Part shown: piece after piece, positions 27,198 to 40,313 of the stretch
How the letters are laid out: each line of letters opens with the position of its first letter
How positions within the stretch are numbered: the stretch's first letter is position 1
IMG/VR virus record: IMGVR_UViG_2660238349_000007
Reading direction: 5' to 3' (one strand)
Source: a virus
Lineage: Duplodnaviria; Heunggongvirae; Uroviricota; Caudoviricetes
DNA length: 41,649 bases
Program-made: the position numbers and the translations under genes
Notes under the pieces: generated by a model
Told to the model about the DNA's origin: nothing
The model's input: the letters and a program-made list of their open reading frames with translations, nothing else
The model's database searches: none

Positions 27198-28343
27198 ATG
27201 GCACAGGGCTTGCCTGTATCAAACGTTGTTAATGTTGATGTGATCATGTCGCCGCGTGCAGCATCAGGGCGAAATTTTGGTGCATTACTCATTCTCGGCC
27301 CGTCCACAATCATTCCGGTAAGTGAGCGCATTCGCCGTTATTCTGCCGCGGAAGATATTGGAAAAGATTTTGGCGTGGAATCACCAGAATATAAGGCTGC
27401 GCAGGTGTTTTTCTCACAATCACCGAAGCCTCAGGAGGTTTTTGTTGGTCGTTGGGTGAAAACGAAGGGAGACAGCGAACAGGCCACGCCTGAGACGCTG
27501 GAGCAGGCTGTGAATGCCATGCTTGATTATACTTCATGGTATGGGCTGGGGATTGCAGACGATGCAGATATTCCGGATGCAGACTGGCTGAAAGTGGCTG
27601 CGGCGATCGAATCCTCTTCTGTAAGCCGTATTCTGGCGATTACGACAAGCGATGAGAAATGCCTGCAGACTGCATCCAGCGATGATTTGGCATCAAAACT
27701 GAAAACCGCCGGATATTCACGCAGTTTTATTCAGTATTCATCGGGTAATAAATACGCTGCGTTATCTGCATTTGGCCGGGCATTCACGGTTAATTTTAAT
27801 GGCAGTAATACCGCGATTACGCTCAAGTTTAAGCAGGAGCCGGGTGTCGGGTATGAAACACTGACAGTCAGCCAGGCATCGGCACTTGATGCAAAAAACT
27901 GCAATGTATTCGTGTACTACCAGAATGATACAGCTATCCTCCAGCAGGGAGTGATGACCAACGGTGATTTCTTTGATGAACGCCACGGCCTGGACTGGTT
28001 ACAGAATTATGTGCAGACCAACCTCTATAACCTGCTTTATACCAGCACCACGAAAGTTCCCCAGACTGAAGCCGGTATTACCCGACTGTTATCAAGTGTT
28101 GAAAAATCACTGGATCAGGCCGTTCAGAATGGACTGATTGCTCCGGGCGTATGGAACGGGGGCGACCTTGGCCAGTTGTCATCAGGTGACACGCTGCCCA
28201 AAGGTTATTACGTATACGCCCAGCCGCTGGATGAACAGGCACAATCAGAACGTGAAGCCCGTAAGGCTCCGGTGATTCAGGCTGCAATAAAACTTGCAGG
28301 CGCGGTTCATTACGCTGACGTACAGATTAACGTTGTTCGCTAA
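27198..28343 (+). CDS. Tail sheath protein
   Basis: 381-aa ORF directly upstream of the tube gene; size and position typical of a contractile sheath. Confidence 0.65.
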
Positions 28344-28353
28344 GGGGAAGTGA

Positions 28354-28794
28354 ATGTCTACCTATTCTTTTATGGATGTCACTGCGACGCTGACCGGGCC
28401 GACCGGTTCGATTGACCTCGGGTACGGTTCGGCAAGTTCTGAAGAGGGGATTGTGGTTGCGATGGGCGGTCCTAAAAACACCATGACCATCGGTGCTGAT
28501 GGCGAAGTGATGCACAGTCTCCATGCAGATAAAAGCGGGACGATTACCGTTAACCTTCTGAAGACATCACCGACAAATAAAAAATTGTCGCTGGCGTATA
28601 ACGCACAGAGCCAGTCTTCTGCCACATGGGGGAATAACGTTATCGTGATCCGCAACAAGGTCAGCGGCGACATCATCACGGCACGCAGTGTTGCGTTCCA
28701 GAAACAACCGGATAACGCCAACGCTAAAACCGGTAATACGATGCCGTGGGTGTTTGACTGCGGCAAGATTGACCAGGTTCTCGGGGAGTTTTAA
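28354..28794 (+). CDS. Tail tube protein
   Basis: 146-aa ORF between sheath and chaperone. Confidence 0.6.
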   Translation: MSTYSFMDVTATLTGPTGSIDLGYGSASSEEGIVVAMGGPKNTMTIGADGEVMHSLHADKSGTITVNLLKTSPTNKKLSLAYNAQSQSSATWGNNVIVIRNKVSGDIITARSVAFQKQPDNANAKTGNTMPWVFDCGKIDQVLGEF

Positions 28795-28797
28795 TAC

Positions 28798-29250
28798 ATG
28801 GAATTCGAAATCAAAGGCGTGAAATATCGCGTGGCAAAACTCAGCGTTTTTGACCAGCTGAAAGTGACCCGCAAACTTCTGCCGGTGCTGGCAGGAATGA
28901 TGTCAGATTTCGGGAGCATTCGCTCCCGTTTGCCTGCTGATGGCAAAATCGACACCGTGAAATTCGAGCAGTTAAAACCGGTGTTTGAAACCATGCTCCC
29001 GCGTATCGCTGAGGAACTGTCTTCCCTGACCGAAGATGACACCGATGCGATTATTCATCCCTGTCTTGCGGTGGTATCGCGGCGTCATATGGACGGATGG
29101 GTTCCGGTATTTACCCGGGGCGAACTGATGTTTGATGATATTGACTTGCTGGTCATGCTGCAGCTGGTGGCGCGGGTGGTCGCCGATTCGCTGGGAAATT
29201 TTTTGCCTACACCCCTTACCAGCACGACGCAGAGCCTGCAACAGGGCTGA
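28798..29250 (+). CDS. Tail assembly chaperone (G-like)
   Basis: 150-aa ORF immediately upstream of the tape measure gene; carries a slippery site near its 3' end. Confidence 0.6.
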   Translation: MEFEIKGVKYRVAKLSVFDQLKVTRKLLPVLAGMMSDFGSIRSRLPADGKIDTVKFEQLKPVFETMLPRIAEELSSLTEDDTDAIIHPCLAVVSRRHMDGWVPVFTRGELMFDDIDLLVMLQLVARVVADSLGNFLPTPLTSTTQSLQQG

Positions 29251-29438
29251 CGTTTAACAGCCTGCCGGACGGGCTGTCCTACCTTCTCAATCCGGTTGAC
29301 GCCGGGTTAATTCCTTATACAGCACTTAAAGATGGCTCTGTCGATTTGTACGATATTGCTCTTTTGAATGACCATCTGGCGGTAAAAGCGGATAACCAGC
29401 GGCGCATTGAGAAATGGAGAGAGGATAATGAACGCTGA
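29193..29438 (+). other. Programmed -1 frameshift site and GT-like chaperone extension
   Basis: Tandem slippery heptamers G_GGA_AAT (29193-29199) and A_AAT_TTT (29196-29202); -1 frame is open from 29145 to a TGA at 29436-29438, adding about 78 aa. Confidence 0.5.
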
Positions 29439-31416
29439 AACTATTAAAGATTTCCTCGTCTCGCTTGGCTTCAGTGTGGATGATGCAGGAGCGAAAAAGT
29501 TCGGTTCTGTCCTCGCCGGTACAACTGCAAATGTCATCAAAATGGGGCTGGCCGTTGAAGGAGCCGCGCTGTCCGTGGTGGCCTTCACGGCTAAGATCGC
29601 CTCCGGTCTGGATAATCTTTACTGGGCGTCACAGCGCACTGGAGCGACAGTCCAGGGAATTCAGTCTATTGGCTATGCGGTTTCGCAGGTTGGCGGCAGC
29701 GTGGACGCTGCGCGATCTTCTCTGGAAAGCCTCTCCCGGTTTATTCGCAACAATCCCGGTGCAGAAGGCTTTCTGAATCGCCTGGGCGTACAGACCCGTG
29801 ATGCCAGCGGTAACATGCGTGACATGGCCGCTATCTTTACGGGCGTTGGACAGAAACTCAGTAGCATGCCGTATTACCGGGCTAACCAGTATGCGCAGAT
29901 GCTGGGTATTGACGAAAATACCCTTATGGCGATGCGTCGGGGTGTGGGTGGTTTCTCCGGGCAGTACAGCGCAATGGCGAAAGCTATCGGCTTCAATGCT
30001 GACGAGGCGGCCAGAAGCTCCAACAAATTTATGACCTCCCTGCGTGAGTTTAGCGCGATGGCAGGCATGGCCCGTGACAAAATCGGCTCTAATCTTGCGG
30101 GTGGACTTGCGGGTTCGCTGGACACCCTGCGCCGCCATATCCTGGACAACTTCCCTCGTATCGAGCAGACCCTGACGAAAGCCATAAAAGGCATTCTGGC
30201 GCTCGGGGATATTATCGGGCGGCTGTTCTTCAGACTGATTGAGGGGACATCAGGCCTTATCACCTGGTGGCAATCGCTGGATAAGCAAACGCGGGAGTTG
30301 ATCTCGCTGTTTGGCGCACTGACGATTGCGCTGCGCATTCTGAACAGTACGTTCTGGATGTCGCCGGTTGGCCTCATTACCGCGCTGGCGGCGGGGATTG
30401 CCCTCCTGTGGGAGGACTATCAGACCTGGAAGGAAGGCGGCGACAGCCTGATTGACTGGGGCAAGTGGAAACCGGAGGTCGATGCCGCGCTGAAGATGGT
30501 TCGTGACCTTAAAACGACCGTTAACGATCTGGCGAAAGCGCTGGCGAAACTACTCAATATTGACCCCAAATCATGGTCCCTGAAGTGGGATTTCAGCAAC
30601 TTCATCGACCAGATGGGCGAATTCAGCAAAATGCTGAACATGATCGCCGACCTGCTCAACGCTATCAAAGATGGACGCTGGGCTGATGCCGTCAGCATCG
30701 GCAAACAGATACTTAATCAGGGCAGCGAAAATCCGTCAGCGATGCCGATGGTTACAGACAGCGCTAACAGTACTGCCGACTGGATTAAAGAGCACTGGGG
30801 ATTCGATCCCCGCAGCGTGGGCCGGACGGTACGCGGCTGGTTTGGTGATGATGAGCCGGAACAACATGCACAGGCTACGAAACGAGGAGAACGGAATAAC
30901 AATCCGGGAAACCTTAATTTTGCTGGTCAGGCAGGGGCTTCTCTTGAACGCCCGGGCGGGCGATTTGCCAGATTTGAAACTGCCTTTGATGGATTACGGG
31001 CTCTTGCTCGTCAGTTAATGCTGTACGCCGGACGGGGAATAAACAGTGTGGAGAAAATTATCTCTACCTGGGCACCTGCGTCTGATAATAACAACACAAC
31101 TGCGTATATCAGGGCTGTATCGCAACGACTGGGAGTGGATCCCCGGGCTGCCCTGAATATGAGCGATCCGCAAACCATGTCAGCATTGATGAGCAGCATT
31201 ATCCAGCATGAAAATGGAAGAAATATCTATTCTCGAGAGCTGATTAATAAGGCTGCCGTGGCGGGAATTAGTGGCAAAATGACAGAGGTTAACCAGCAAA
31301 ATACTTACCACATTTACGGTGGCGGAGATCCGCACGCTGTCGGTAATGAGGTTGCACGTCGGCAACAGTCTGCAAATGCTCAGGTCATGCGAAGTAATCA
31401 GGTGAGGGTGGGTTAG
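29428..31416 (+). CDS. Tail tape measure protein
   Basis: About 662-aa ORF after the chaperone; Ala/Gly-rich helical N-terminal region and hydrophobic central segments; GGAGAGAGG RBS before ATG 29428. Confidence 0.8.
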   Translation: MNAETIKDFLVSLGFSVDDAGAKKFGSVLAGTTANVIKMGLAVEGAALSVVAFTAKIASGLDNLYWASQRTGATVQGIQSIGYAVSQVGGSVDAARSSLESLSRFIRNNPGAEGFLNRLGVQTRDASGNMRDMAAIFTGVGQKLSSMPYYRANQYAQMLGIDENTLMAMRRGVGGFSGQYSAMAKAIGFNADEAARSSNKFMTSLREFSAMAGMARDKIGSNLAGGLAGSLDTLRRHILDNFPRIEQTLTKAIKGILALGDIIGRLFFRLIEGTSGLITWWQSLDKQTRELISLFGALTIALRILNSTFWMSPVGLITALAAGIALLWEDYQTWKEGGDSLIDWGKWKPEVDAALKMVRDLKTTVNDLAKALAKLLNIDPKSWSLKWDFSNFIDQMGEFSKMLNMIADLLNAIKDGRWADAVSIGKQILNQGSENPSAMPMVTDSANSTADWIKEHWGFDPRSVGRTVRGWFGDDEPEQHAQATKRGERNNNPGNLNFAGQAGASLERPGGRFARFETAFDGLRALARQLMLYAGRGINSVEKIISTWAPASDNNNTTAYIRAVSQRLGVDPRAALNMSDPQTMSALMSSIIQHENGRNIYSRELINKAAVAGISGKMTEVNQQNTYHIYGGGDPHAVGNEVARRQQSANAQVMRSNQVRVG

Positions 31417-32307: not shown

Positions 32308-33369
32308 ATGTCACAGAACTGGATGAGACATTTCGAGCTGCAGCTTGTGGACGGGAACGGTCAGGGAATTGAGCTAAGTGATTTCAAAGTCACCTTTACG
32401 ATCGACTGGTTCAACATCAGCAGCGCGTCCCGGGTAGGGACTATCAAAATTTATAACCTCTCGGCAGATACTGTGAACCGAATTACCGGGCAGGAGTTTT
32501 CGAAAGTGCGTCTGATTGCGGGTTACGACGGTATCGCGCCGGAGGTGTCAGCAAGCGACGTAGGGACCGTGCGGGAAGTTGACGCGGCGGACGTGGGCCA
32601 GAGAGATGGCCGCAACTACGGACTGATTTTCAGCGGTGAAATTCGCTACTCGGTCACAGGAAAAGACAGTCCGGTTGATACCTACGTCCTGATTCAGGCA
32701 GCAGATACTGATCTGGCTTTTGCCACCAGTATAACCTCACAGACGCTGGCTGCCGGTTACACGGTCGCTGATGTGAACCGTGCGCTGATGAAAGACTTCG
32801 AAGCCAAAGGCGCGACCGAAGGCCTGACGCCTGAAATGCCTGCTACTGTATTCCCCCGGGGGCGGGTACTCTTTGGCATGACGCGGCATCTAATGGATAA
32901 CGTAGCCGGACAATGTGGCGCAACATGGCAATTCGTGGACGGTCAGCGCCAGATGGTGGCGAATAACGAATATGTTCACGAAGCGATTGTGCTCAACAGC
33001 GCTACCGGGCTTATTGGCATGCCGCAGCAGACTATCGGTAACGGCGTAAACGTCCGCGCGCTTATTAATCCGAACATCCGGGTTAACGGGCTCATTCAGC
33101 TGGATCAGGCTTCCGTCTATCGTACCGCGTTGTCGAACAACGATATTGCGATGGTTGGTGGTCAGATCACCGACCAGAACACGGACGGAAATATCACGCT
33201 CAGCGGCACCACATCGCAGCCTGCCAGCATCGCAACGGATGGCGTTTATATTGTGCGCGGGATTATGTACACTGGCGACACAAGGGGCCAGGCGTGGTAC
33301 ATGGATATGATGTGCGAAGCGCGTGGCGCGGCGGATCTGTATACGCAATCGGCTTTGCAAAGGGGATGA
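32308..33369 (+). CDS. Putative baseplate hub / late-control-D-like tail protein
   Basis: 353-aa ORF in the baseplate block; call by position and size. Confidence 0.45.
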   Translation: MSQNWMRHFELQLVDGNGQGIELSDFKVTFTIDWFNISSASRVGTIKIYNLSADTVNRITGQEFSKVRLIAGYDGIAPEVSASDVGTVREVDAADVGQRDGRNYGLIFSGEIRYSVTGKDSPVDTYVLIQAADTDLAFATSITSQTLAAGYTVADVNRALMKDFEAKGATEGLTPEMPATVFPRGRVLFGMTRHLMDNVAGQCGATWQFVDGQRQMVANNEYVHEAIVLNSATGLIGMPQQTIGNGVNVRALINPNIRVNGLIQLDQASVYRTALSNNDIAMVGGQITDQNTDGNITLSGTTSQPASIATDGVYIVRGIMYTGDTRGQAWYMDMMCEARGAADLYTQSALQRG

Positions 33370-33372
33370 GCA

Positions 33373-33717
33373 ATGAGGGGTATTATTTTTCTGTTAGCTG
33401 CCTTTTCTGCGTGCAGCGCGTGGGCGGATGGCTTCACGGTTAAATGCGGTGGCTACACTATGGTTGCAAACCAGGGCGAGTTATCGACTATCAACGGTGA
33501 AAGAGTTACCTCTCAAAAAATCACCGAACTGGGTACCAATGGTTTGAAAGTAGACATGGGGCTTATGCCTGCCAAAGACGGTAACAACTACGGCTTTGAA
33601 TACATTCGTCGCCCTGGTACCGAAACGCGATTCCTGAATGTCCAGCTTCTGCAGAACAGCATGGATGCGCCGAAAATCATCGGATCTTTCCCTTGTAAAA
33701 AAGTGGCTGGGCGATGA
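33373..33717 (+). CDS. Secreted or lipoprotein-like small protein (moron in tail module)
   Basis: 114-aa ORF with N-terminal signal peptide MRGIIFLLAAFSACSAWA (lipobox-like FSAC or AxA cleavage site). Confidence 0.5.
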   Translation: MRGIIFLLAAFSACSAWADGFTVKCGGYTMVANQGELSTINGERVTSQKITELGTNGLKVDMGLMPAKDGNNYGFEYIRRPGTETRFLNVQLLQNSMDAPKIIGSFPCKKVAGR

Positions 33718-33720
33718 TTT

Positions 33721-33880
33721 TTGACGTCCATAATATTATGGATGAACTGTTGCCAATTGCGCTAAATTTAACAAAATAATACTGGTTAACGCATTTTTTG
33801 AACCATCTGTACACAGTAGTTGTCTATACTTTACCTTAAAGGTAAACTCTGCGCTCCACTGATGTTCACTATGGGAGGGG
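33721..33880 (+). promoter_or_regulatory. AT-rich promoter/operator region of the moron cassette
   Basis: TTGACG at 33721-33726; perfect 16-bp palindrome TCCATAATATTATGGA at 33727-33742; second palindrome TTTACCTT-a-AAGGTAAA at 33830-33846. Confidence 0.45.
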
Positions 33881-33882
33881 AT

Positions 33883-34122
33883 ATGAGGAAAATCGTTAAT
33901 CGTTACTTAGCCGCTGCCGGTAGTGTTATGGACATTATGCCGACTACAGATTACTGGCAATATGCTGCTTCTGGATCTGATTGTCGGGCAATAAGAAGTG
34001 ATGTTAAAGTCATTGCAAGTGACATGAACAGAGTTATCAGGTATGAGTTCAAAACCCCGCAAGCAGGCGGCCGTTCTCAAAAAGCATCAGGAAAACAAAG
34101 CGTCGCAAAAAGCCGTTCCTGA
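33883..34122 (+). CDS. Small hypothetical protein
   Basis: About 80-aa ORF with strong RBS GGGAGGGG before ATG 33883; 3' end overlaps the next ORF by 80 nt in another frame. Confidence 0.35.
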   Translation: MRKIVNRYLAAAGSVMDIMPTTDYWQYAASGSDCRAIRSDVKVIASDMNRVIRYEFKTPQAGGRSQKASGKQSVAKSRS

Positions 34123-34615
34123 TTCGGATGGTATCGACGAAGATATTGATTCCTCGGAATATGATGAGTCTCAGGAAGTAGTGGAAAAGCTGTCTGCAGT
34201 TGCCAACCTTGATCCTGAGCTAAAATCGAAGTTAACACCTGAACTTCTTGAGAGAGTTTCTAAGAACCCGAAGGTTATTGCCATGTTTCAGCAGGAGTCT
34301 TTTCAGGGACCACTCCCACCTCCTGCTATGCTCTTACAATATAATCAAATATTACCCGGCGGCGCTGAGAGAATTTTCAGGCTAACCGAAAAAGAGCAAG
34401 AGCATAGGCATAAGACGCAAAGTGATGCATTACTTGGTGCGGTTTCACGCGACAAACGTGGGCAATGGATGGGATTTTGCATTGCAATGGTAGTGCTTAT
34501 AATGGCTGCGTTTTTTGCTAATCGCGGTAACACTTGGTTCGCAGGTACTCTTGCTACTTTAGATCTCGTAGGATTAACTACAGTGTTTGTTTATGGTAGG
34601 AAGAAACCTAAATAA
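34043..34615 (+). CDS. DUF2335-like membrane protein
   Basis: 190-aa ORF with charged N-terminal region, conserved-looking LLQYNQILPGGAERIFRLTEKEQEHRH stretch and two C-terminal TM helices; family assignment from memory. Confidence 0.5.
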   Translation: MSSKPRKQAAVLKKHQENKASQKAVPDSDGIDEDIDSSEYDESQEVVEKLSAVANLDPELKSKLTPELLERVSKNPKVIAMFQQESFQGPLPPPAMLLQYNQILPGGAERIFRLTEKEQEHRHKTQSDALLGAVSRDKRGQWMGFCIAMVVLIMAAFFANRGNTWFAGTLATLDLVGLTTVFVYGRKKPK

Positions 34616-34672: not shown

Positions 34673-35425
34673 ATGGCCGTATCTGACCAGACCCGCAGCG
34701 GCGACCTTGCCGAAACATTCAAATCTGAACGGGAAACAACAAAGAACCAGATCCGTGTCGCCTTGCCTGGCATTATTCAGTCATTCGCTCCTGATGCGGT
34801 GACGGCGGTTGTACAGCCTGCTATCCGTTACGTTGAAATTGATAACGACGGCAACCGCATTACCAAAAATTACCCATTGCTGGTGGATGTGCCAGTGGTA
34901 TTCCCGCGTGGCGGAGGCTGTACGCTAACGTTTCCAGTTAAAGCCGGTGATGAATGTTTGGTGATTTTTGCCGATCGTTGTATTGATTTCTGGTGGCAGA
35001 GTGGCGGGATACAGGAGCCGGTCGATGACAGAATGCATGATTTATCGGATGCGTTTTGTATTGTCGGTCCCCAGTCGCAGGCAAGGAAGATTAGCGGTAT
35101 TAATACCAGTGCCACACAGTTGCGTAGTGATGACGGCAGCACCTATTTTGAGCTTAATCCTGATACCAGGAAAATTAAAATTGTCGCTCCGGGGGGCCTT
35201 GATGTGGTTGCCCCTCTGGCTGATTTTTCTGAGAAAGTAACCATTCATGGCCTGTTAACCTGGATGGGAGGCATGGTGGGGTCTGTTGTTTCTGGTGTGG
35301 CTTCAAAAATCACTGGTGCTGTTGAGTTTTTGGGTAGCGTGAAGGCTAACGGCAAGCCAATCGATGATACGCACACTCATGGTGGTGTTCAGCGCGGTGG
35401 AAGCAATACCGACGGAGTAAACTGA
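34673..35425 (+). CDS. Baseplate spike protein (P2 gpV-like)
   Basis: 250-aa ORF with C-terminal THTHGG…GG motif resembling the gpV apex. Confidence 0.7.
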   Translation: MAVSDQTRSGDLAETFKSERETTKNQIRVALPGIIQSFAPDAVTAVVQPAIRYVEIDNDGNRITKNYPLLVDVPVVFPRGGGCTLTFPVKAGDECLVIFADRCIDFWWQSGGIQEPVDDRMHDLSDAFCIVGPQSQARKISGINTSATQLRSDDGSTYFELNPDTRKIKIVAPGGLDVVAPLADFSEKVTIHGLLTWMGGMVGSVVSGVASKITGAVEFLGSVKANGKPIDDTHTHGGVQRGGSNTDGVN

Positions 35426-39917: not shown

Positions 39918-40313
39918 ATGCTTATTGGCTATGTCCGCGTATCAACAAATGACCAGAATACAGAATTGCAGCGTAACGCGCTGGAGTGCGCAGGATGTGA
40001 ACTGATTTTTGAAGATAAAATCAGCGGAACAAAATCAGCCAGACCGGGATTGAAAAAACTGCTCAGAACGCTATCAGAAGGAGATACGCTGGTTGTCTGG
40101 AAGCTGGACAGACTGGGGCGCAGTGTGCGGCATCTTGTCGTGCTGGTGGAGGAGTTGCGCGAACAAGGTGTTAATTTTAGTAGTTATGTTATTACAGGTG
40201 GGGGATTTCTCCCCCTTATGCAGATTTTCTCGTTAACTATTGGCGAAGTGGCCATATTTTTCTGTTTTTTAAAAAACTATCTTCAACTATATAACTGCAA
40301 CAATGTTCACTAA
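39918..40313 (+). pseudogene. Truncated serine DNA invertase (Gin/Hin/Pin family)
   Basis: First ~87 aa match the invertase catalytic domain (MLIGYVRVSTNDQNTELQRNAL…LVVWKLDRLGRS…GVNF); downstream sequence diverges into AT-rich unrelated sequence with no HTH domain. Confidence 0.7.

What the first reader, a model, noticed from the sequence alone, without database searches (positions are those of the whole stretch)
29193..29438. Tandem -1 slippery heptamers at the 3' end of the tail assembly chaperone gene
G_GGA_AAT and A_AAT_TTT both fit the X_XXY_YYZ pattern in the chaperone frame, and the -1 frame stays open from 29145 to a stop at 29436-29438, which overlaps the tape-measure start. This reproduces the conserved G/GT-type frameshift of tailed phages and predicts a fusion product extended by about 78 aa.
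Basis: partly seen in the sequence, partly recalled or inferred. Interest (0 to 1): 0.45.

Follow-up and report, generated by a model that had tools for sequence, protein, structure and literature searches.

The report
Tail chaperone G/GT ribosomal frameshift site
This is an ordinary but real programmed -1 ribosomal frameshift that lets an E. coli prophage make a short and a long form of its tail assembly chaperone from one gene, and it shows that the small 'DUF6889' gene annotated downstream is really the tail end of the long form.

Summary
The window is an SEN34/Brunovirus-like myovirus prophage of E. coli with the gene order sheath, tube, chaperone, tape measure.

- **Slippery run.** The chaperone gene (28798-29250, Pfam Phage_TAC_15) carries G_GGA_AAT_TTT_TTG at 29193-29205. 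This holds three overlapping in-phase heptamers.
- **The -1 frame.** It is open from 29145 to 29438 and ends 11 nt inside the tape-measure gene. It has no ATG or GTG. It matches Pfam DUF6889 (E = 1e-20).
- **Conservation.** In 57 distinct relatives, T_TTT_TTN is invariant and synonymous sites are frozen (TTT 57/57, AAT 54/54, GGA 54/57). Selection switches from frame 0 to frame -1 at the run.
- **Natural fusions.** Seven distant relatives encode the same TAC_15+DUF6889 protein as one ORF. They are colinear through the predicted junction. The two whose DNA was read have no slippery sequence there.
- **Stimulators.** No conserved downstream RNA structure exists. A strong anti-Shine-Dalgarno-complementary element (GGGTGGTC, 29174-29181) lies 11, 14 and 17 nt upstream and is an untested candidate stimulator.

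The products are G (150 aa, 16.8 kDa) and GT (213 aa, 24.0 kDa). This is a new member of a well-known kind. Its practical value is correcting annotation.

The parts
28354..28794 (+). Tail tube gene (context: upstream neighbour of the chaperone)
   Evidence: Pfam KPP10_Orf10/DUF3277 E = 8.8e-61. RefSeq names it 'DUF3277 family protein'. The sheath gene (DUF3383, 27198-28343) precedes it.
28798..29250 (+). Gene G: tail assembly chaperone, zero-frame product of 150 aa (16.8 kDa)
   Evidence: Pfam Phage_TAC_15 E = 6e-31. PHROG 1688 'tail assembly chaperone' E = 3.8e-65. RefSeq WP_000393962.1 'phage tail assembly chaperone'. The 14-16 residues after the slip site are highly variable in relatives.
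29174..29181 (+). GGGTGGTC: internal Shine-Dalgarno-like element, candidate 5' frameshift stimulator (inferred, untested)
   Evidence: It has the strongest predicted duplex with the 16S 3' tail anywhere in the scanned 450 nt of G plus flank: -12.7 kcal/mol, rank 1 of 450 in the window and in 17 of the 36 other diverse relatives. The family mean is -10.7, against -2.4 +/- 1.6 elsewhere. About 8 site clusters this strong (15 scan windows) occur in 24 kb of the prophage. Spacers to the three heptamers are 11, 14 and 17 nt. The Arg codon is CGG in 47 of 57 relatives, against 18% CGG usage in the phage genes.
29193..29205 (+). Slippery run G_GGA_AAT_TTT_TTG: three overlapping in-phase X_XXY_YYZ heptamers (starts 29193, 29196, 29199)
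   Evidence: In 57 unique relatives: TTT 57/57; next codon TTG 55, TTA 1, TTC 1; AAT 54/54; GGA 54/57. Neighbouring synonymous sites vary freely. T_TTT_TTN is the only heptamer present in all relatives. In L139 a -1-frame TGA abuts the T6 run. In L006, L007 and L108 a -1-frame TAG lies 3 nt before GGGAAAT.
29199..29438 (+). T segment: -1-frame extension (77-79 codons plus TGA) that forms the C-terminus of the 213-aa GT fusion
   Evidence: The frame is open from 29145 to 29438. It has no ATG or GTG; the first TTG is at 29346. Codon-position entropy in the -1 frame is 0.73/0.61/1.44 across 36 relatives. No start codon is conserved in relatives; the first canonical start is often at codon 55-61 of 79.
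29313..29429 (+). DUF6889 domain within the T segment
   Evidence: Pfam PF21829 E = 1.2e-20, residues 39-77 of the extension. PHROG 4364 (unknown function) E = 1.9e-23. RefSeq annotates 29274-29438 as a stand-alone 54-aa 'DUF6889 family protein' whose first codon in the sequence is CTG.
29416..29430 (+). Shine-Dalgarno GGAGAGAGG plus ATG of the tape-measure gene, embedded in the end of T
   Evidence: Sequence read. The motif is conserved in all phage relatives read. The RefSeq CDS starts at 29428.
29428..31416 (+). Tape-measure protein gene (662 aa, with a C-terminal transglycosylase-like region)
   Evidence: PHROG 2276 'tail length tape measure protein' E = 4.6e-283. Pfam PhageMin_Tail gives a weak hit. 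RefSeq names it 'lytic transglycosylase'.

Best explanation
This is a programmed -1 ribosomal frameshift of the lambda G/GT (P2 E/E+E') type.

**Proposed mechanism.** Most ribosomes translate gene G (28798-29250) to its stop and make the 150-aa tail assembly chaperone. A minority slip back one nucleotide on the 13-nt run G_GGA_AAT_TTT_TTG (29193-29205). They then continue in the -1 frame to TGA at 29436-29438 and make a 213-aa GT protein. Its C-terminal 77-79 residues carry the DUF6889 domain.

By analogy with lambda, both forms bind the tape-measure protein through the G part. The T part of the rarer GT form recruits the tube protein. Neither form ends up in the virion.

**The slip site.** The run offers three consecutive chances to slip.
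- T_TTT_TTG is the core retained by every relative, and it is the annotated site in P2.
- A_AAT_TTT belongs to the class that responds best to stimulators in E. coli reporters.
- G_GGA_AAT is dispensable in some relatives.
- Slipping at the first two sites gives the junction ...GNFF|AY.... Slipping at the third gives ...GNFL|AY....

**Stimulators.** No downstream RNA structure is involved. A strong internal Shine-Dalgarno-like element 11-17 nt upstream may add stimulation.

**Shown versus inferred.** Shown here: the anatomy, the conservation, the switch of coding frame, and the existence of natural colinear fusions. Inferred: that slippage happens, its efficiency, which heptamer is used, the role of the SD-like element, and the tube-recruiting role of T.
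For: 1. Anatomy: the order is sheath, tube, TAC, (-1 ORF), tape measure. The -1 stop overlaps the tape-measure ATG by 11 nt.
2. The -1 ORF is real coding sequence. It hits Pfam DUF6889 at E = 1.2e-20. The third codon position is the most variable in the -1 frame (0.73/0.61/1.44).
3. The -1 ORF cannot be translated on its own. It has no ATG or GTG, no start is conserved in 37 relatives, and there is no promoter-like site. Annotators disagree on its start.
4. The entropy periodicity switches at the run. It is 0.50/0.29/1.09 by zero-frame codon position in the 60 nt upstream, and 0.84/0.61/1.27 by -1-frame position in the 17 nt downstream.
5. The slip run is frozen at synonymous sites in 57 distinct sequences from Escherichia to Photorhabdus, Erwinia and Serratia. 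Flanking codons vary. GGA, AAT, TTT and TTG are not the preferred codons of this phage (16%, 45%, 51% and 11% usage).
6. Stop codons in the -1 frame of relatives bound the shift window to the run itself.
7. Seven distant representatives of 191-210 aa encode TAC_15+DUF6889 in one ORF. They are colinear through the predicted junction: SLARFLAYEP and SLARFFTYAP against SLGNF[L/F]AYTP. The two whose DNA was read (P0160 and P0173; loci L150, L151, L152) use TTC CTG and TAC TTC at the junction, with no slippery heptamer. The slippery nucleotides are therefore not needed for the protein sequence.
8. Phage P2 has the same architecture. Its annotated -1 site is GGT_T_TTT_TTG, and E+E' overlaps the start of T.
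9. A relative, Klebsiella phage Mulock, already carries a joined 'tape measure chaperone frameshift product' CDS in GenBank.
Against: - There is no experimental evidence for this locus or its close relatives: no fusion protein and no reporter assay.
- In E. coli reporters each of the three heptamers alone is near background without a stimulator: 0.069%, 0.070% and 0.118% (Sharma et al. 2014, PMC4066793, Table S3).
- No conserved downstream structure was found, so the efficiency is unknown.
- The spacing of the SD-like element is ambiguous. It is 11-17 nt from the end of the paired stretch, but longer if measured from the CCUCC-core register, where the known optimum is 9-14 nt (PMC5009743).
- The SD-like element overlaps conserved Arg-Val-Val codons, so protein-level conservation may explain part of it.
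Confidence: 0.9

Rival explanations
1. DUF6889 is an independent small gene, as in RefSeq. A 54-aa protein would be initiated inside the -1 frame, at the CTG at 29274 or another non-canonical start, with no frameshift.
For: RefSeq/PGAP annotates WP_071819661.1 at 29274-29438. Many database entries are stand-alone 43-78-aa 'DUF6889 family protein' or 'NTP pyrophosphohydrolase'. PHROG 4364 is a 54-position profile.
Against: - The frame has no ATG or GTG. The only TTGs (29346, 29364) lie inside the domain.
- Start positions differ between annotators and no start is conserved. In several relatives the first canonical start is at codon 55-61 of 79.
- Conservation of the -1 reading begins immediately after the slip run (A-R-T-P...), upstream of any candidate start.
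- Natural single-ORF fusions are colinear with G+T.
- This model does not explain the frozen synonymous sites of the 13-mer.
Confidence: 0.04
2. Transcriptional slippage. RNA polymerase adds one extra U on the T6 run, and standard translation of those transcripts gives the GT protein (junction GNFFAY).
For: A T7 variant at the DNA level does give the in-frame 213-aa fusion (Logan contig L149 = P0001). This shows that one extra T is sufficient. Homopolymer slippage is a known route to such products (PMC5009743).
Against: - Productive bacterial slippage is described for runs of about 9 A or T (PMC5009743). Here the run is exactly 6 in every one of the 57 relatives and is never lengthened.
- Strict synonymous conservation of the non-homopolymeric GGA and AAT codons, and the correct phase of all heptamers, is what tRNA re-pairing predicts. 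Polymerase slippage does not predict it.
- The same T_TTT_TTG in P2 is annotated as a translational frameshift.
Confidence: 0.04
3. Chance or relic. The heptamers and the open -1 frame are fortuitous or the remains of a decayed gene, and only G is made.
For: Single in-phase heptamers are frequent (3.5 per 1000 codons). Individually these heptamers are weak in reporters.
Against: See: a Pfam-level match, purifying selection in the -1 frame, an invariant slip run across genera, and natural fusions. The locus occurs in 337 of 5,426 complete E. coli genomes (308 with a match covering at least 80% of the query). The run is intact in 76 of 80 close viral contigs.
Confidence: 0.01

Closest known systems
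Bacteriophage P2 genes E and E+E' (-1 frameshift at T_TTT_TTG; Pfam Phage_TAC_7 + Phage_P2_GpE)
   Same: - Both are contractile-tailed temperate phages with the order sheath, tube, chaperone, tape measure.
- The slip heptamer is the same, T_TTT_TTG preceded by a Gly codon. It is read directly in AF063097, whose annotation marks the -1 site.
- The extension ends a few nt inside the tape-measure gene: 8 nt in P2 and 11 nt here.
- In both genes the strongest anti-SD-complementary site shares a GGTGGTC core and lies just upstream of the slip site.
   Different: - There is no detectable sequence homology (hhalign probability 0.4%), and the Pfam families differ.
- P2 has a single heptamer; this locus has three overlapping ones.
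- The SD-like element is 2 nt from the P2 heptamer but 11-17 nt away here.
- G is 150 aa here, against 91 aa for gpE.
Bacteriophage lambda G/GT (G_GGA_AAG), prototype of the conserved tail-chaperone frameshift (Levin 1993; Xu, Hendrix and Duda 2004, 2013, 2014, as summarised in PMC5009743)
   Same: - Two overlapping ORFs lie just upstream of the tape-measure gene.
- A -1 slip near the 3' end of G gives a minor fusion product.
- The first heptamer here (G_GGA_AAT) differs from lambda's by one base.
- The logic is the same: a fixed G:GT ratio, about 30:1 in lambda.
   Different: - Lambda is a siphovirus and its G and T proteins are unrelated in sequence.
- Lambda's A-site codon is AAG, the most shift-prone in E. 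coli. G_GGA_AAT is weak (0.069% against 0.277% without a stimulator), and some relatives here have lost it.
E. coli dnaX -1 frameshift cassette (A_AAA_AAG with an upstream SD and a downstream hairpin)
   Same: Both have a heptamer in a bacterial translation system. An internal SD-like sequence lies upstream, at a distance within or near the 9-14 nt range reported for -1 stimulation.
   Different: There is no conserved downstream hairpin. The SD-like role is untested. Here the frameshift product is longer than the zero-frame product; in dnaX it is shorter.
Klebsiella phage Mulock CPT_Mulock_014/015 (GenBank MN098327)
   Same: It is a true homologue (57% identity in G). It has the identical 13-mer GGGAAATTTTTTG and is annotated as a joined 'tape measure chaperone frameshift product'.
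   Different: The frameshift exists only as a database annotation. The genome announcement does not mention it, and there is no analysis or experiment.
Single-ORF TAC_15+DUF6889 proteins of distant relatives (P0155, P0160, P0172, P0173, P0182, P0210, P0242)
   Same: The two domains occur in the same order and are colinear through the junction.
   Different: In the two whose DNA was read (P0160 and P0173), there is no frameshift and no slippery sequence at the junction. In one lineage (L150, L151) a separate TAC_15 gene precedes the fusion, so the short and long forms are separate genes. The tape-measure gene is not adjacent.

Membership tests
G/GT-type programmed -1 frameshift of tail assembly chaperones | Two overlapping ORFs located between the major tail/tube gene and the tape-measure gene | tested here: met
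   Tube 28354-28794, G 28798-29250, -1 ORF to 29438, tape measure from 29428.
G/GT-type programmed -1 frameshift of tail assembly chaperones | A slippery X_XXY_YYZ heptamer in the phase of the upstream ORF, inside the overlap | tested here: met
   Three overlapping heptamers at 29193, 29196 and 29199. They are the only in-phase heptamers in the shift window 29145-29250.
G/GT-type programmed -1 frameshift of tail assembly chaperones | The downstream ORF lacks its own initiation signals yet is conserved as protein | tested here: met
   No ATG or GTG. No conserved start. A -1-frame coding signature. Pfam DUF6889 E = 1.2e-20.
G/GT-type programmed -1 frameshift of tail assembly chaperones | The slip site is conserved among diverged relatives beyond what the protein sequence requires | tested here: met
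   57 unique sequences: TTT 57/57, TTG 55/57, AAT 54/54, GGA 54/57. The natural fusions whose DNA was read encode the same residues with non-slippery codons.
G/GT-type programmed -1 frameshift of tail assembly chaperones | A fusion protein is made at a low, fixed ratio and is required for tail assembly | not testable with these tools
   This needs western blot or mass spectrometry, a reporter assay, and genetics.
Phage P2 E/E+E' family (Pfam Phage_TAC_7 + Phage_P2_GpE) | Sequence homology to gpE and to the E' extension | tested here: not met
   hhalign of the 21-sequence GT profile against P2 E+E' gives probability 0.4%, E = 0.14. The Pfam families differ.
Phage P2 E/E+E' family (Pfam Phage_TAC_7 + Phage_P2_GpE) | A -1 shift at T_TTT_TTG near the end of the chaperone gene, with the extension overlapping the tape-measure start | tested here: met
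   Same heptamer and same architecture. This is a resemblance in mechanism, not membership.
Pfam Phage_TAC_15 (PF21822) / DUF6889 (PF21829) | Score above the curated gathering threshold | tested here: met
   108.0 bits against a cutoff of 22, and 73.4 bits against a cutoff of 23.9.
dnaX/IS-type stimulated -1 frameshift cassette | A conserved stem-loop or pseudoknot 5-9 nt downstream of the heptamer | tested here: not met
   Window folds give z = -0.45 and -0.87. RNAalifold on 37 relatives gives -1.17 kcal/mol with 0 covarying pairs. There is no Rfam match.
dnaX/IS-type stimulated -1 frameshift cassette | An internal Shine-Dalgarno sequence 9-14 nt upstream of the shift site | tested here: inconclusive
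   GGGTGGTC at 29174-29181 scores -12.7 kcal/mol, the best site in the gene, and is conserved. Spacers are 11, 14 and 17 nt, but they are longer in the CCUCC-core register. The element overlaps conserved codons. Its function is untested.
Transcriptional slippage (programmed polymerase realignment) | A long homopolymer run (about 9 A or T in the bacterial cases cited in PMC5009743) | tested here: not met
   The run is exactly T6 in all 57 relatives. Literature threshold.

The most novel reading that the evidence does not exclude
The conserved 13-nt triple-overlap run plus the upstream GGGTGGTC element could form a distinct -1 frameshift cassette that needs no RNA structure. In it, anti-SD pairing holds the ribosome while it crosses three consecutive slip opportunities. 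This would raise the yield well above what any single weak heptamer gives, and it would produce two GT isoforms (Phe or Leu at the junction). The shared GGTGGTC core next to the P2 site would then point to an unrecognised 5' stimulator common to myovirus tail-chaperone frameshifts.
Probability: 0.25. Interest if true: 0.45.

Novelty: new member of a known kind. Interest (0 to 1): 0.25.

Why it matters
**Biology.** This is the textbook G/GT solution for setting the ratio of two tail-assembly chaperone forms, so it holds no surprise for a phage specialist.

**Practical value.**
- RefSeq annotates the -1 part as a separate 54-aa 'DUF6889 family protein' whose first codon is CTG. A match to this region is present in 337 of 5,426 complete E. 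coli genomes. Older records call it 'NTP pyrophosphohydrolase'.
- The analysis assigns a role to Pfam DUF6889 and PHROG 4364. They are the T (frameshift-extension) domain of Phage_TAC_15 chaperones.
- The family offers a clean natural series for studying slip-site requirements in enterobacteria. It includes members with three, two or one heptamer, and relatives with an in-frame fusion and no slippery sequence.

Tried and rejected
Single-sequence folds are not better than shuffles. RNAalifold on 37 relatives found only trivial pairs and no covariation. The long-range pairing of 29163-29177 with 29211-29223 in the window's MFE is not conserved. It would also be impossible while a ribosome sits on the run.
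2. **Rfam scan of 28700-29600** at E <= 1: no match.
3. **Separate promoter or terminator for the T segment:** no promoter-like site. One terminator-like hairpin (29289-29308) is at chance level.
4. **Homology to P2 E+E':** none by profile comparison. No relative has a solved structure.
5. **Structure prediction of the fusion.** The second attempt (P0001 plus 44 homologues) gave mean pLDDT 48, with only the T part near 78. That is too poor for a fold search, so none was run.
6. **Literature.** No paper mentions DUF6889. The Mulock and SEN34 papers do not discuss the frameshift.
7. **NCBIfam:** no model for either part.
8. **Picking one heptamer as 'the' site.** The comparative data (T_TTT_TTN is universal) and the reporter data (A_AAU_UUU responds best to stimulators) point to different heptamers, so this stays open.
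Full report
**Check of the observation**

Reading 28500-29700 and translating shows a 150-codon ORF at 28798-29250. Its codons around the site are CTG GGA AAT TTT TTG (Leu-Gly-Asn-Phe-Leu, 29191-29205).

The -1 frame is closed by stops at 29133, 29136 and 29142. It is then open for 97 codons until TGA at 29436-29438. The tape-measure ATG is at 29428 and is preceded by GGAGAGAGG, so the overlap is 11 nt. The products would be G (150 aa, 16.8 kDa) and GT (213 aa, 24.0 kDa). About 78 residues of GT come from the -1 frame, and GT is 63 residues longer than G.

A single heptamer means little, because in-phase heptamers occur 3.5 times per 1000 codons in the window's ORFs. The triple run is a different matter. 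The only other XXXYYYZZZZZZ 12-mers in the window are TTTTTTAAAAAA at 40265 (+ strand) and at 1374 of the reverse-complement strand, and their phase was not examined. A 97-codon open -1 stretch has a probability of about 8e-4 at the local stop frequency.

**What the locus is**

The window matches E. coli chromosomes at 100% identity. A match is present in 337 of 5,426 complete genomes. It resembles Escherichia phages vB_EcoM-606R2 and similar (98%), Yersinia phage YP3 (84%), Salmonella phage SEN34 (Brunovirus, 76%) and a group of Klebsiella temperate myophages (about 71%).

The genes run as follows:
- sheath (DUF3383, 27198-28343)
- tube (KPP10_Orf10/DUF3277, 28354-28794)
- chaperone (Phage_TAC_15 E = 6e-31; phrog_1688 E = 4e-65)
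- tape measure (phrog_2276 E = 5e-283)
- Dit-like protein, plug, hub, spike and baseplate genes

The -1 extension translated alone hits Pfam DUF6889 (E = 1.2e-20) and phrog_4364, which has unknown function.

RefSeq annotates 29274-29438 as a separate 54-aa 'DUF6889 family protein'. That coordinate is a CTG codon, because the -1 frame has no ATG or GTG at all and its only TTGs lie deep inside the domain. Other annotators chose other starts or named the product 'NTP pyrophosphohydrolase'. Only Klebsiella phage Mulock carries a joined 'tape measure chaperone frameshift product' CDS. Its paper does not mention the frameshift.

**Comparative evidence**

I collected 6 phage loci, 80 near-identical viral contigs and 60 loci from species-representative genomes, spanning Enterobacter, Citrobacter, Pantoea, Erwinia, Photorhabdus, Serratia, Rahnella and others. 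They give 57 distinct sequences around the site.

- The Phe codon is TTT in 57 of 57.
- The next codon is TTG in 55, TTA in 1 and TTC in 1.
- Asn is AAT in 54 of 54.
- Gly is GGA in 54 of 57.
- Neighbouring synonymous sites vary freely. Asp is GAT 38 and GAC 19. Ser uses six codons. Ala is GCG 27 and GCC 18.
- These are not the phage's preferred codons. Usage is GGA 16%, AAT 45%, TTT 51% and TTG 11%.

The variants are informative. L099, L111 and L116 have CTC GGA, which destroys heptamer 1. L131, L139 and L140 read Gly-Gly/Asp-Phe-Leu and keep only T_TTT_TTG. L115 has T_TTT_TTA and L144 has T_TTT_TTC. T_TTT_TTN is therefore the one universal element.

Stops in the -1 frame bound the shift window. 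In L006, L007 and L108 a TAG lies 3 nt before GGGAAAT. In L139 a TGA directly abuts the T6 run, so in that locus the shift can only happen on T_TTT_TTG.

Base entropy by codon position also changes at the run. In the 60 nt upstream it is 0.50/0.29/1.09 in frame 0. In the 17 nt after the run the most variable position is the third position of frame -1 (0.84/0.61/1.27). Over 50 codons of the T region it is 0.73/0.61/1.44 in frame -1.

No start codon is conserved in the -1 frame. In several loci the first ATG, GTG or TTG is at codon 55-61 of 79, far inside the conserved part, which begins right after the run with A-R-T-P. The zero-frame tail of G after the run is short, variable and rich in Pro, Ser and Thr.

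**Natural fusions**

An exhaustive HMMER search with the 79-aa extension found 107 representatives. Most are mini-ORFs of 40-90 aa, which is what gene callers produce when the frameshift is ignored. Seven distant ones (40-50% identity) are 191-210 aa long.

All seven carry DUF6889 at the C-terminus. Six also score for Phage_TAC_15 at the N-terminus at E <= 0.01, five of them above Pfam's gathering score. They align colinearly with the in-silico GT fusion straight through the junction: SLARFLAYEP, SLARFFTYAP and NLHGYFSYTP against SLGNF(L/F)AYTP.

I read the DNA of two of them, P0160 and P0173. The junction is TTC CTG GCC in one and TAC TTC TCG in the other, and neither gene has any in-phase heptamer. 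In one lineage (L150, L151) a separate 167-aa TAC_15 gene lies just upstream, so the short and long forms are two genes.

This shows three things. G and T belong to one polypeptide. The junction is at the slippery run. The slippery nucleotides are not required by the protein, so their conservation in the window's family reflects selection for slipperiness.

A near-identical Logan contig (L149 = P0001) carries T7 instead of T6. It therefore encodes the 213-aa fusion in frame. This is either a sequencing error or a mutation.

**Stimulators**

- Folds of 29206-29300 and 29150-29330 are no better than shuffles (z = -0.45 and -0.87).
- The nearest hairpin starts about 20 nt after the run.
- RNAalifold on 37 diverse relatives gives -1.17 kcal/mol with no covarying pair.
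- Rfam has no match.

I then scanned for complementarity to the 16S 3' tail. The strongest site in the whole 450-nt scan is GGGTGGTC at 29174-29181, at -12.7 kcal/mol. It ranks first in the window and in 17 of the 36 other loci. The family mean is -10.7 kcal/mol, against -2.4 +/- 1.6 elsewhere. In Photorhabdus, where the codons differ (AGG GTG ATC, AGA GTG ATC), the complementarity persists in two of three sequence types.

About eight site clusters this strong (15 scan windows) occur in 24 kb of the prophage. The a posteriori chance of one lying within 20 nt upstream of the run is therefore roughly 1%.

The spacers are 11, 14 and 17 nt to the three heptamers. The reported range for -1 stimulation is 9-14 nt (PMC5009743). 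Measured from the CCUCC-core register, however, the distances are longer. The element also overlaps conserved Arg-Val-Val codons, although CGG is used in 47 of 57 relatives against 18% background usage.

I treat this element as a candidate stimulator only. Curiously, the strongest anti-SD site of the P2 E gene is AAGGTGGTC, 2 nt before its T_TTT_TTG. The two in-frame fusion genes have no such site upstream of the junction.

**Which heptamer**

Reporter data in E. coli (Sharma et al. 2014, PMC4066793, Table S3) are as follows.

| Heptamer | No stimulator | IS911 stimulator | IS3 pseudoknot |
|---|---|---|---|
| GGGAAAU | 0.069% | 0.112% | 1.05% |
| AAAUUUU | 0.070% | 0.355% | 11.4% |
| UUUUUUG | 0.118% | 0.247% | 0.77% |

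The middle heptamer belongs to the class that responds best to stimulators (H_HHU_UUY). The third heptamer is the universal one and is the annotated site in P2. The first is the weakest and is dispensable in nature.

Native context clearly matters. Lambda's G_GGA_AAG gives 0.277% in that reporter, but lambda makes G and GT at about 30:1, and P2's efficiency is 2-3-fold higher than lambda's (PMC5009743).

The most economical reading is that the 13-nt run gives three successive chances to slip. Slips at sites 1 and 2 give GNFF|AY and slips at site 3 give GNFL|AY, so mass spectrometry can resolve the question.

**Rivals**

- **Independent initiation of a 6-kDa DUF6889 protein.** This is contradicted by the lack of any conserved start, by conservation starting at the run, and by the natural fusions.
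- **Transcriptional slippage on T6.** This is unlikely. Productive cases use runs of about 9, the run is never longer than 6 in the family, and the non-homopolymeric codons GGA and AAT are also frozen.
- **Chance.** This is excluded by the comparative data.

**Comparison with known systems and verdict**

Functionally this is the lambda G/GT and P2 E/E+E' mechanism. It is closest to P2, which shares the myovirus gene order, the T_TTT_TTG heptamer and the overlap with the tape-measure start. It is not a sequence member of the P2 family (hhalign probability 0.4%). Its families are Phage_TAC_15 and DUF6889.

The finding is real and correctly interpreted, but it belongs to a well-known kind and is already annotated in one relative. 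What is new is modest:
- the third heptamer, which is the universal one
- the absence of a downstream structure
- the candidate upstream SD-like element
- the identification of DUF6889 and phrog_4364 as the T domain, which is mis-annotated as a stand-alone gene in RefSeq E. coli genomes carrying this prophage

Nothing here was tested experimentally.

Noticed in passing
window 29274-29438: RefSeq/PGAP annotates a stand-alone 54-aa 'DUF6889 family protein' (WP_071819661.1) at a coordinate that is a CTG codon. Older records call homologues 'NTP pyrophosphohydrolase'. These are almost certainly artefacts of not modelling the frameshift.
   Followed up: yes
L149:1895-1908 (Logan SRR23924998 contig; protein P0001): A 98%-identical relative has GGGAAATTTTTTTG (T7 instead of T6), so G and T are fused in frame as a called 213-aa gene. 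This is either a homopolymer sequencing error or a GT-only mutant prophage.
   Followed up: partly
L150:1989-3130, L151:577-1718, L152:1038-1664: Distant relatives encode TAC_15+DUF6889 as one ORF with no slippery site. In L150 and L151 a separate 167-aa TAC_15 gene precedes it. The neighbours are Dit-like, plug and spike genes rather than a tape-measure gene, so the tail-module order differs.
   Followed up: partly
L148:668-685 (phage P2, AF063097 19667-19684): The strongest anti-Shine-Dalgarno-complementary site of the P2 E gene (AAGGTGGTC, -12.8 kcal/mol) lies 2 nt before its T_TTT_TTG frameshift site. It shares the GGTGGTC core with the element at window 29174-29181, although the proteins show no detectable homology.
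   Followed up: partly
window 29428-31416: The C-terminal third of the tape-measure protein (about residues 440-650) matches transglycosylase/endolysin-type PHROGs, and RefSeq names the protein 'lytic transglycosylase'. This is a tape measure with a built-in cell-wall hydrolase region.
   Followed up: no
window 33373-34615: Three ORFs sit between the baseplate hub (32308-33369) and the spike (34673-35425). They are a 114-aa protein with a signal-peptide-like N-terminus and no Pfam hit, a 100-aa ORF with no Pfam hit, and a DUF2335 membrane protein. They look like inserted cargo (moron) genes.
   Followed up: no
L113:1815-1994; L095 and L138 (match regions): Some relatives are decayed. In L113 the T frame is cut short after 39 codons. 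In L095 and L138 the G gene itself is disrupted.
   Followed up: no
P0147 (201 aa), P0075 (212 aa), P0150 (170 aa): These database proteins join parts of this locus to unrelated or out-of-frame sequence. P0147 has a dehydrogenase-like N-terminus joined to DUF6889. P0075 has a PF06163 domain joined to the TAC. P0150 has DUF6889 read through into the tape-measure start. They are probably assembly or gene-calling chimeras.
   Followed up: no
window 29163-29177 with 29211-29223: In the window's minimum-free-energy fold, the sequence upstream of the slip run pairs with CACCCC...CCAG downstream, which places the run in a loop. The pairing is not conserved in relatives and cannot form while a ribosome is on the run.
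   Followed up: yes
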